Below, piece by piece: positions 11,956-39,050 of a stretch of DNA of 64,000 nucleotides. Under the pieces are notes generated by a model that ran no database searches, was not told where the DNA came from, and saw only the letters and a list, made by a program, of their open reading frames with translations. How positions within the stretch are numbered: the stretch's first letter is position 1; each line of letters begins with the position of its first letter. The stretch comes from Octopus vulgaris. Lineage: Eukaryota. The DNA is taken from contig OX597834.1 in assembly GCA_951406725.2 (NCBI GenBank), positions 42,780,001-42,844,000 of the forward strand, written 5' to 3'. The position numbers and the translations under genes were made by a program.

Positions 11956-13123
11956 TCATATATATTTTTTCAGGAAGAGATGTACTGAGTAATCTTTTGG
12001 TAAAAGTCTAATATATTTGTACTTTTGAGTAATCCTTCAGTTTAATCCCAAACTCTCTTTATTCTAACTCGACATAAAAATAAACATAAATGCAAATCTG
12101 CATAGACACTCACACACACACACACACACACAAAAACCATATATACATAGAGAGAGAAAGAGAGAGAATGAGAGATTGATAAAGACATTGATAAATAGAT
12201 AAAGACAGGCAGATGAATGGGGGGGCGGGAGAAAGATAGACATGTGTACTGAACAATGAATTACATCTGACATTTAATACAGTGTGCCTAACTAGAAATG
12301 TCCATGCCGTAAAATACACAGATAAGCAGAGAGACAGACAAGCGACCACCAGAAAGGCAGCTAGGTAGACGCATAAATATTTACATATATATATATATAT
12401 AATGCATAGAAGAATTGTGTGGAGGCGAAAAGATAATTATAGTCACTGATATAAAATCATTTATATTATTTAGTTAAATACAGCAGGCTTCTCGCGACAT
12501 CTTCTAGCCTTATTGTGACCTCATCAGCAAAGCATATGTTTCGCAAAATTAACTGAAGTGATTAATGCTGTACGAATCGCTAAGTAAATGAAAAAATATA
12601 TCCATTGGTTGAAAGTAGAAGTTATAATTGCATATATTTTGTAATTATTTTACTTATAGCACCTGTTACGAATTGCAACTGATTTACCGAAGGTATATTC
12701 TTTTCCTATCTTGGCACAAAGCCCGAAATTTTTTAGGAGGGGCCAGACGATTTGATCGACCACAGTAAGCAACTGATACCCGGCGGAATTTGGACTCAGA
12801 ACATAAAGGCAGACGAAATACCTATTTCTTTACATACATGTATACATACACAGGCGTATGTACGTACATACATACATACATACATACATACATACATACA
12901 TACATGCATACATGCATGTATGCATACATACACACATACATACGTACATATATACGACGAACTAACTGTTACTTTCTCAGATGCAGCAGGGATTTTTGTC
13001 AGTGAACAGGTCGCGGATTTTAGCGACGAAAATATTTTGACAAATTAAACTTAAATGTTGAAGTGAATCGAACGGCTTTTGTGTGTTTCTTAAATGGCTT
13101 ACAAACACCTTCCACGCTGCAAT

Positions 13124-13172
<49 letters not shown>

Positions 13173-17282: not shown

Positions 17283-17363
<81 letters not shown>

Positions 17364-17797
17364 GAAAAAACAAGTCAAAAATAGAAAATGCTAAGATGAT
17401 TTTATAGTGAATCTTTCAGTACCGGTTTCGGTCATTTTGAGACCTTTTCAACTGTAACGATTAAATAATTAAATTTAGAAAAATTAGAAGAAAAGTTTTT
17501 TTAAAAGAATATTTCTGTAGTAGTGTTCAGATATAAGTAGCATTCTGCCTTTCTCTGACTCCCTTGTTTGCTCGAGGTCGTTTCCAAGGAGAATTAGCAC
17601 AACTTTTAACGTAAACGAGCAGGGCAAATGAAAAATAACAAAAATGTATTTTTAGCGCAAGAGTCGACCACATAGTGGACACTCGCTTATATTTGTGTAT
17701 AAATTTTTATTGTATCCCTGGTTTTTATGCGCTAACCCACTTGGTGTTAAATTGATGGTATTATTAAATTAATATCCAATTTTTTCACCCTTATTTT

Positions 17798-38759: not shown

Positions 38760-39050
38760 AGTGAAAAAACTACAGAAGCCTTGTTTTATAAGGTTAAAGA
38801 ATATATTTAAGTCGTTATGTTTGAAAAATGTTATAAAATTTTGCAAATAGTAACTCTTCTTTGCACTTCATAACGAAGATATAACACGATGTAGATAAAG
38901 ACATTTGAGAAATTTGAAAAGTTAAATCGAAACCGGTAATTTCTCCAAAAAACTATGTTACTATTTGCAAAATTTTATAACATTTTTCAAACATAACGAC
39001 TTAAATATATTCTTTAACCTTATAAAACAAGGCTTCTGTAGTTTTTCACT
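38760..39050. mobile_element. Foldback element: 95-bp inverted arms around a spacer carrying a hammerhead; PLE-like inverted terminal structure
   Basis: 38760-38854 is the reverse complement of 38957-39050 with a single 1-nt indel; (TA)n on the left, tatatat on the right. Confidence 0.85.
38907..38945 (+). ncRNA. Minimal type-I hammerhead ribozyme, U3:A8 core variant
   Basis: GAGAAAU-UUGAAAA-GuuaaauC-GAAA-CCGG-UA-AUUUCUC; perfect 7-bp stem I, palindromic ACCGGU stem III, vestigial stem II. Confidence 0.7.

What the first reader, a model, noticed from the sequence alone, without database searches (positions are those of the whole stretch)
17414..17457. Hammerhead with U3:A8 core (UUGAAAA), recurring at 38907
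Seen: two motifs with different stems I and II share UUGAAAA...GAAACCGGUA in place of CUGANGA. Established: C3 and G8 form a Watson-Crick pair in the active hammerhead, so U3:A8 is the compensatory change. Inference: the double substitution in two different elements suggests selection for catalysis, and this variant class would be missed by CUGANGA-based searches.
Basis: partly seen in the sequence, partly recalled or inferred. Interest (0 to 1): 0.75.

Follow-up and report, generated by a model that had tools for sequence, protein, structure and literature searches.

The report
U-A core hammerheads in Penelope elements
Both motifs are end-pieces of Penelope-type jumping genes carrying a small, likely self-cutting "hammerhead" RNA whose C-G core pair is replaced by U-A, a variant already published for such elements; here the two copies most likely inherited one old swap, and cutting is untested.

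Summary
Both motifs are type I minimal hammerheads (core UUGAAAA, palindromic stem III) in 5'-truncated ends of Penelope-like retroelements (PLEs). Site 1 comes from a young family with full-length RT + GIY-YIG copies. Site 2 is an older copy whose stem II has decayed to one pair. U3:A8 is not new: it was reported in nature in 2011 and in schistosome PLE hammerheads in 2014, including this exact core. Nor are the two sites independent double substitutions: their proteins sit in one clade (95/99) whose sampled lineages carry U3:A8 or its derivatives, so one old swap explains both. Copy counts (U3:A8 11,583; C3:A8 334; U3:G8 430) reflect amplification, not selection. Better evidence for selection is family-level: three compensatory switches (C:G to U:A, U:A to A:U, and C:G/G:C), with 20 of 22 hand-picked families Watson-Crick paired. 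A G3:C8 copy lies in this window at 13002. Natural A3:U8 and G3:C8 were not found in my paper searches, but key papers were unavailable, and this scan already noted them on other DNA of this genome. Cleavage is untested, and sister families tolerate U4C, A6U or A9C cores.

The parts
17353..17571 (-). 5'-truncated 3' end (pseudo-LTR fragment) of a young Penelope-like element family, ending in a (TA)n run
   Evidence: 99.5% identical to the 3' end of full-length element L167; 27 of 48 listed genome matches identical over 207 nt, 3,023 first-look candidates
17417..17454 (-). Site 1: type I minimal hammerhead, core U3 G A A A8 A9 (17451-17445), 3-bp stem I, 4-bp stem II, palindromic stem III ACCGGU, predicted cut after A17 (17420)
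   Evidence: identical motif in both pLTRs and the inverted copy of L167
38750..39062 (+). 5'-truncated 3' end of a second PLE family with an inverted truncated copy in front (90-nt perfect inverted repeat, arms 38765-38854 and 38957-39046)
   Evidence: relatives 91-95% identical, 1,691 candidates; a family copy (L436) carries RT-EN 57% identical to the site-1 family and about 90% to L117/L119
38907..38945 (+). Site 2: type I minimal hammerhead, U3:A8 core 38914-38920, 7-bp stem I, stem II decayed to 1 pair (family form GUUAACAC has 2), predicted cut after A17 (38938)
   Evidence: 29 of 30 loci keep UUGAAAA, 19 of 30 have GTTAACAC, and this copy's GTTAAATC is unique
12958..13126 (+). 3' end of a third, unrelated young PLE family (1,025-aa ORF with C-terminal GIY-YIG)
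12995..13044 (+).
   Evidence: z -3.56; 11,042 genome matches vs 176 control

Best explanation
Both motifs are type I minimal hammerhead folds with a U3:A8 core in the terminal repeats of Penelope-like retroelements; they likely descend from one old C:G-to-U:A swap, and intact family members are predicted to cut their RNA slowly after A17 when two copies pair. Shown: the anatomy, the position in pLTRs of RT + GIY-YIG elements, the copy numbers, and the family-level pairing of positions 3 and 8. Inferred: tandem or inverted element transcripts bring two motifs together; the self-complementary ACCGGU forms a 6-bp intermolecular stem III; U3 pairs with A8 so that the 2'-OH of residue 8 sits where G8's does; cleavage probably needs help from the element's protein, as in the anole PLE. 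The cut would trim or circularise read-through precursor RNA in only part of the molecules, because genomic copies were reverse-transcribed through an uncut (or re-ligated) motif. The two window copies are dead truncated insertions, and site 2 has further lost a stem II pair. Any selection acted on the master lineages, not on these copies.
For: Full-length L167: the identical hammerhead in two direct pLTRs 4,349 nt apart plus an inverted copy, flanking ORF1 and a 762-aa RT + GIY-YIG. The site-2 family is tied to RT-EN. Tree: the U3:A8, A3:U8 and U3:G8 families form one clade (95/99, 8 of 10 rows; 81/96 in the 18-row tree) with C3:G8 outgroups and 3 changes; 'U3:A8 only' as one clade is rejected (p-AU 3e-47), so A3:U8 and U3:G8 arose inside it. 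Stems I and II differ completely while the core is held across proteins 53-60% identical. Core-anchored table: 20 of 22 families Watson-Crick at 3:8, 1 wobble, 1 mismatch. With N3 and N8 free, purine-purine cores are near background (747 vs 587), and pyrimidine-pyrimidine cores (1,095 vs 250) are about 78 of the 100 listed rows one motif lying antisense in an APE-RT ORF with no stem I. ACCGGU duplex -8.3 kcal/mol; the dimer beats two monomers for site 1 (-23.5 vs -18.2). Literature: PMC4209133 (min-HHRs in pLTRs act weakly as dimers; U3-A8 class); PMC11167929 (in a PLE hammerhead C3G or G8C kills cleavage, the double mutant partly rescues, and protein is needed).
Against: No cleavage was measured or seen. 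In a deep scan of a type III hammerhead only the C:G to G:C swap rescued activity; all other changes in the CUGA turn, U:A included, were low (PMC9901934). U3 can pair with A17 in both sites, and the predicted site-2 fold extends stem I through that pair; this is analogous by inference to the inhibitory C3-G17 pairing (PMC3884650). Young intact PLE families here carry U4C (L404), A6U (L399) or A9C (L311) cores, and a tandem retrozyme-like subfamily has a C3:A8 mismatch (11 of 100 rows), so core constraint is not absolute. In the anole PLE, cleavage was not needed for insertion in vitro and no RNA-seq read ended at the site. The 22 families were hand-picked, partly through patterns that fixed 3 and 8, and are related, so the permutation result (0 of 100,000) overstates the case. 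The branching inside the clade is partly unresolved, and only two C3:G8 outgroups were used.
Confidence: 0.72

Rival explanations
1. The motif is a vestigial or purely structural element (protein-binding or dimerisation signal of the pLTR). The 3:8 pair is kept for fold or by slow compensatory drift under AT pressure, and cleavage is negligible or irrelevant to transposition.
For: Young active families with U4C, A6U or A9C cores; U3-A17 pairing; U:A not rescuing in one hammerhead; cleavage dispensable in vitro for the anole PLE; all genomic copies examined carry sequence on both sides of the cut site.
Against: The 3:8 pair forms only in the active-like core (PMC3884650), yet three separate double changes all kept it Watson-Crick; no family other than the L373 row (G17 in the register chosen, C17 in its second copy) has G17; the G:C swap runs against AT bias.
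Confidence: 0.2
2. One reading: the two elements acquired the double substitution independently, each under selection for catalysis.
For: The stems differ completely between the sites, and the proteins are only 57% identical.
Against: Every sampled lineage between them carries U3:A8 or a derivative, and one change at the base of the clade suffices.
Confidence: 0.06
3. Chance look-alikes in AT-rich DNA.
For: Monomer folding is no better than shuffles, there is no Rfam hit at the gathering score, and one false family exists for this pattern.
Against: 0 of 100 shuffles match; 11,583 vs 97 genome-wide; fixed position in pLTRs of RT-EN elements.
Confidence: 0.02

Closest known systems
Minimal type I hammerheads of metazoan PLE pLTRs, U3-A8 class (Cervera and de la Pena 2014, PMC4209133; read: main text parts 1-2 of 4, supplement file 2 parts 1-2 of 3; supplement file 1 could not be searched)
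   Same: Position in pLTRs, mostly solo truncated copies, opposite-strand pairs, small palindromic stem III, short stem I, U3-A8 covariation (about 1,300 hits in S. mansoni), the exact core UUGAAAA in S. mansoni(4), and a U3:G8 core in Saccoglossus.
   Different: Here U3:A8 marks a whole clade of families (at least 11,583 motif matches) with a 4-nt palindromic insert and often no extra nucleotide after A9. A3:U8 and G3:C8 families also occur; neither is among the alignment rows read.
Natural U3-A8 core variants (Perreault et al. 2011, PMC3088659; passages only)
   Same: Same covariation, described as first seen in nature there and as active in vitro.
   Different: The passages read do not place those examples in PLE repeats; A3:U8 and G3:C8 are not mentioned in them.
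PAc Poseidon PLE hammerhead (PMC11167929; passages only)
   Same: pLTR hammerhead whose 3:8 pair is needed for cleavage; an engineered G3:C8 partly rescues.
   Different: It has the canonical C3:G8 core and is a Poseidon element. The elements here have ORF1 plus a CxxxxCxxC linker, as drawn for Neptune-type PLEs in PMC8557442 (passages); that clade name is by motif only.
Small PLE-associated hammerheads that cleave as dimers (Lunse, Weinberg, Breaker, PMC5785218; not held, title seen only in a reference list)
   Same: By title, the same class and dimer mechanism.
   Different: Unknown: it could already list A3:U8 or G3:C8 cores.

Membership tests
Type I hammerhead ribozyme | Three-stem junction with stem I open at the ends | tested here: met
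   Stems I, II, III placed around the core at both sites; Rfam HH9 alignment of site 1 below gathering score
Type I hammerhead ribozyme | Core U4 G5 A6 N7 A9, G12 A13 A14, A15.1-U16.1, H17 | tested here: met
Type I hammerhead ribozyme | Literal C3 and G8 | tested here: not met
   U3 and A8 instead; the Watson-Crick pair is kept, a published natural variant
Type I hammerhead ribozyme | Stem II of at least 2 pairs closed by G10.1-C11.1 | tested here: inconclusive
   Site 1: 4 pairs. Site 2: 1 pair, family form 2 pairs. The 2-pair minimum is recalled, not from a call.
Type I hammerhead ribozyme | Self-cleavage after N17 | not testable with these tools
   Only assembled contigs were available; they cannot show ends
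PLE minimal (dimer-type) hammerhead | Very short palindromic stem III allowing a dimer | tested here: met
   ACCGGU self-duplex -8.3 kcal/mol; dimer formation itself not measured
PLE minimal (dimer-type) hammerhead | Located in the pLTR of a PLE | tested here: met
   L167 both pLTRs; L436
Penelope-like element (EN+) | RT with C-terminal GIY-YIG endonuclease | tested here: met
   RVT_1 33.9 bits in P0002 with a weak GIY-YIG hit (17.6 bits, below cut-off); GIY-YIG above cut-off in family copies L116, L118, L143
Penelope-like element (EN+) | Partial tandems, inverted 5'-truncated copy, (TA)n targets | tested here: met
Neptune clade of PLEs | Phylogenetic placement with reference Neptune RTs | not tested
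   No reference sequences in the tree; only the linker Zn-finger and ORF1 layout agree
Non-LTR retrozyme | Short non-coding tandem repeats, one hammerhead per unit | tested here: not met
   Both sites are solo ends of coding PLEs; a separate 359-bp C3:G8 array exists elsewhere

The most novel reading that the evidence does not exclude
One genome holds active PLE hammerheads with all four Watson-Crick pairs and the U:G wobble at core positions 3:8, reached by repeated compensatory switches along the element tree. The U3:A8/A17 families would be self-inhibited by a U3-A17 pair until dimerisation or the element's protein opens it, so that cutting is tuned down to leave intact templates. Tens of thousands of such ribozymes per genome would be invisible to CUGANGA searches.
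Probability: 0.3. Interest if true: 0.55.

Novelty: new member of a known kind. Interest (0 to 1): 0.3.

Why it matters
The finding as given is a known variant in a known setting. Its residual value: (1) about 24,000 motif matches in this genome have non-C:G Watson-Crick cores (11,583 + 11,042 + 1,808), against about 21,700 canonical ones in the two stem III classes counted, so fixed-core searches could miss roughly half of them. (2) The family series gives natural, matched constructs to ask whether PLE hammerheads are kept for cutting, which is still open. (3) Natural A3:U8 and G3:C8 cores would complete the covariation of the 3:8 pair, if they are not already in papers I could not read.

Tried and rejected
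Whole-window Rfam scan: the 150 best of 423 matches shown were almost all microsatellite-driven small-RNA hits, none a hammerhead; 273 were not shown. Rfam at gathering score: 0 matches in 8 loci, including 3 canonical C3:G8 loci, so the miss is not due to the core swap. RNA evidence: no listed holder is on record as RNA; four runs laid were contigs only and showed no joint or end at the cut site, which is uninformative. The idea that the AG just before U3 is a splice acceptor got no support from those contigs. Test for insertions starting at the cut site: of the 40 scored copies 38 began at query base 1 and 2 at base 5, all upstream of the motif, but the tool keeps the best scores, so this is biased and inconclusive. 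My interim idea that U3:A8 is the genome's majority class was rejected: canonical cores with a CG stem III number 21,359. CTGAT(T/A)A-TTGATGTAAGG matches were rejected as antisense LINE coding sequence without stem I. A 535-bp repeat with GUGACCA has no stem II and was not counted. The RT beside a C3:G8 motif in L128 belongs to an inserted site-1-type element. No ORF was found for the two most abundant CG-stem families, so they are absent from the trees. The MAFFT alignment of the motifs misaligned the cores and was replaced by a core-anchored table. Papers not held: PMC5785218, PMC1986816, PMC2271363, PMC5850863. Searches for natural A3-U8 or G3-C8 cores returned only engineered G3:C8 mentions.

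Full report
Observation. Site 1 is on the minus strand: 3-bp stem I, core UUGAAAA (17451-17445), 4-bp stem II, GAAA-CCGG-UA. Site 2 is on the plus strand: 7-bp stem I from 38907, the same core, a stem II with only its closing G-C pair, and the same stem III. No shuffle of the window gave a match (0 of 100). Site 1 aligns weakly to Rfam Hammerhead_HH9 (22.9 bits against a gathering score of 52); site 2 does not. My descriptor left positions 3 and 8 free and also found a third motif at 13002, with G3:C8.

What they sit in. The window lies in a 2.8-Gb, microsatellite-rich animal genome. Site 1 is the last 207 nt or so of a young repeat: 27 of 48 listed matches are identical over that length. A full-length copy (L167) has the same hammerhead in two direct repeats 4,349 nt apart and in an inverted copy. 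Between them lie ORF1 and a 762-aa reverse transcriptase with a C-terminal GIY-YIG domain. That is a Penelope-like element (PLE) in the arrangement described in PMC8557442 (passages). Site 2 is flanked by a perfect 90-nt inverted repeat, the usual inverted truncated copy. Its relatives are 91-95% identical, and one carries RT-EN 57% identical to the site-1 protein. In 30 loci of that family, 29 keep UUGAAAA and 19 have a two-pair stem II; the window copy has lost the second pair.

Counts. With stem III fixed as GAAACCGGTH and a 6-24 nt gap, all cores give 16,614 matches (control 1,982). By pair: U3:A8 11,583 (97); A3:U8 1,808 (342); U3:G8 430 (51); C3:A8 334 (53); C3:G8 315 (45); purine-purine 747 (587); pyrimidine-pyrimidine 1,095 (250). 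These are pattern matches without a stem filter, and some sites match twice. By eye, 53 of the 100 listed U3:G8 rows are one genuine PLE subfamily; 23 of 100 C3:A8 rows and about 78 of 100 pyrimidine rows are a LINE antisense artefact without stem I; 11 of 100 C3:A8 rows are a retrozyme-like subfamily. Other stem III classes change the picture: canonical cores with GAAACGTH number 21,359 (1,330) and G3:C8 with GAAAATATTH 11,042 (176). Within the G3:C8 family, 4,786 matches have G3 and 140 do not. It is not a test of selection.

Origin. I took single reading frames from family copies and built two trees. With 18 rows, all U3:A8, A3:U8 and U3:G8 families grouped together (81/96), with a warning about long branches among the outgroups. 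With 10 rows (eight short, redundant or long-branch rows dropped, the site-2 family added) the group had 95/99 support and needed three changes. Holding the U3:A8 rows alone together was rejected (p-AU 3e-47). The simplest history is one C:G to U:A switch at the base, later U:A to A:U, and U:A to U:G. Sites 1 and 2 therefore share one event. In a distant PLE lineage the G3:C8 family has a sister 51% identical in protein with C3:G8 in a homologous motif, a third compensatory switch whose direction is inferred from the canonical state. Thirty loci picked by the GIY-YIG profile, not by the motif, gave downstream hammerheads mostly of a further U3:A8 family with stem III ACAUGU (12 loci), one A3:U8, two decayed motifs of the outgroup family, and none in 15. 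A core-anchored table of 22 hand-picked families shows 20 Watson-Crick pairs, one wobble and one mismatch at 3:8; relatedness and my choice of patterns inflate its permutation result.

Mechanism. The monomer cannot form a real stem III. The palindrome ACCGGU can pair between two copies (-8.3 kcal/mol), as described for PLE minimal hammerheads, which cut weakly as dimers (PMC4209133). In a lizard PLE the 3:8 pair is needed, an engineered G3:C8 partly rescues, and the element's protein is required (PMC11167929). I therefore think intact family members most likely cut slowly after A17 in tandem transcripts, trimming or circularising part of the precursor RNA. This step is inferred. Against it: only the G:C swap rescued a type III hammerhead in a deep scan (PMC9901934); U3 can pair with A17 here; young families with U4C, A6U or A9C cores have spread; and cleavage was dispensable for insertion in vitro. 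The sequencing runs on hand were contigs and could not show ends.

Comparison. Natural U3-A8 covariation was reported in 2011 (PMC3088659, passages). In 2014 it was reported in schistosome PLE hammerheads, about 1,300 hits, with the note that the first descriptor had missed it. The supplement lists the exact core UUGAAAA in a PLE and a U3:G8 core in Saccoglossus. The finding is thus a new member of a known kind. Natural A3:U8 and G3:C8 did not turn up in six searches or in the supplement rows read, but four relevant papers were not held and one supplement file could not be searched. This scan had already noted the G3:C8 family and the four-pair set on other DNA of this genome; I saw those notes after my own results.

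Verdict. Real, well explained, known in kind. Interest 0.3. The worthwhile follow-up is the matched panel of natural cores, not the U3:A8 pair alone.

Noticed in passing
window 12995-13044 (+): Hammerhead with a swapped G3:C8 core in a young PLE family; 11,042 genome matches; sister families with homologous stem II keep C3:G8 (L311, L373).
   Followed up: yes
L174:2500-2549, L085:1489-1538: A3:U8 hammerhead families (1,808 matches, control 342) tied to RT-EN and nested inside the U3:A8 clade; the three A3:U8 rows have C17 or A17, not the U17 that would pair with A3.
   Followed up: yes
L404:3961-4019; L399:4250-4300; L311:8385-8435: Young intact PLE families with fixed deviations at normally invariant core positions: U4C, A6U and A9C. 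An older relative of L404 keeps U4.
   Followed up: partly
L167:5148-5208 (-): ORF1 overlaps the RT-EN frame at a T TTT TTA heptamer, a likely -1 frameshift site (motif type recalled). ORF1 is 411 codons in 20 of 29 copies; no stable downstream hairpin was predicted.
   Followed up: partly
window 17452-17470 (-): The stem I strand before U3 ends in TTACAG after an AT-rich run, like a 3' splice site abutting the core; in Drosophila Penelope an intron ends in helix I. No joint was seen in contigs.
   Followed up: partly
L048:810-2828: 359-bp tandem array (5.6 copies, 98% matches) with one canonical C3:G8 hammerhead per unit, retrozyme-like; a subfamily with a C3:A8 mismatch is also amplified.
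   Followed up: partly
L113-L115, L107, L110: The U3:G8 subfamilies lack one base on the 3' side of stem I, leaving U2.1 unpaired.
   Followed up: no
L310:2471-5545 (-), L311:3942-7877 (+): Long PLE ORFs (1,025 and 1,312 aa) with a divergent RT that Pfam RVT_1 misses; RWR and DKS motifs recall the Hydra clade of PMC8557442, untested.
   Followed up: no
window 17572-17795: About 220 nt between the site-1 fragment and the next (TA)n run belong to a different repeat with weak matches in L128, L080, L091.
   Followed up: no
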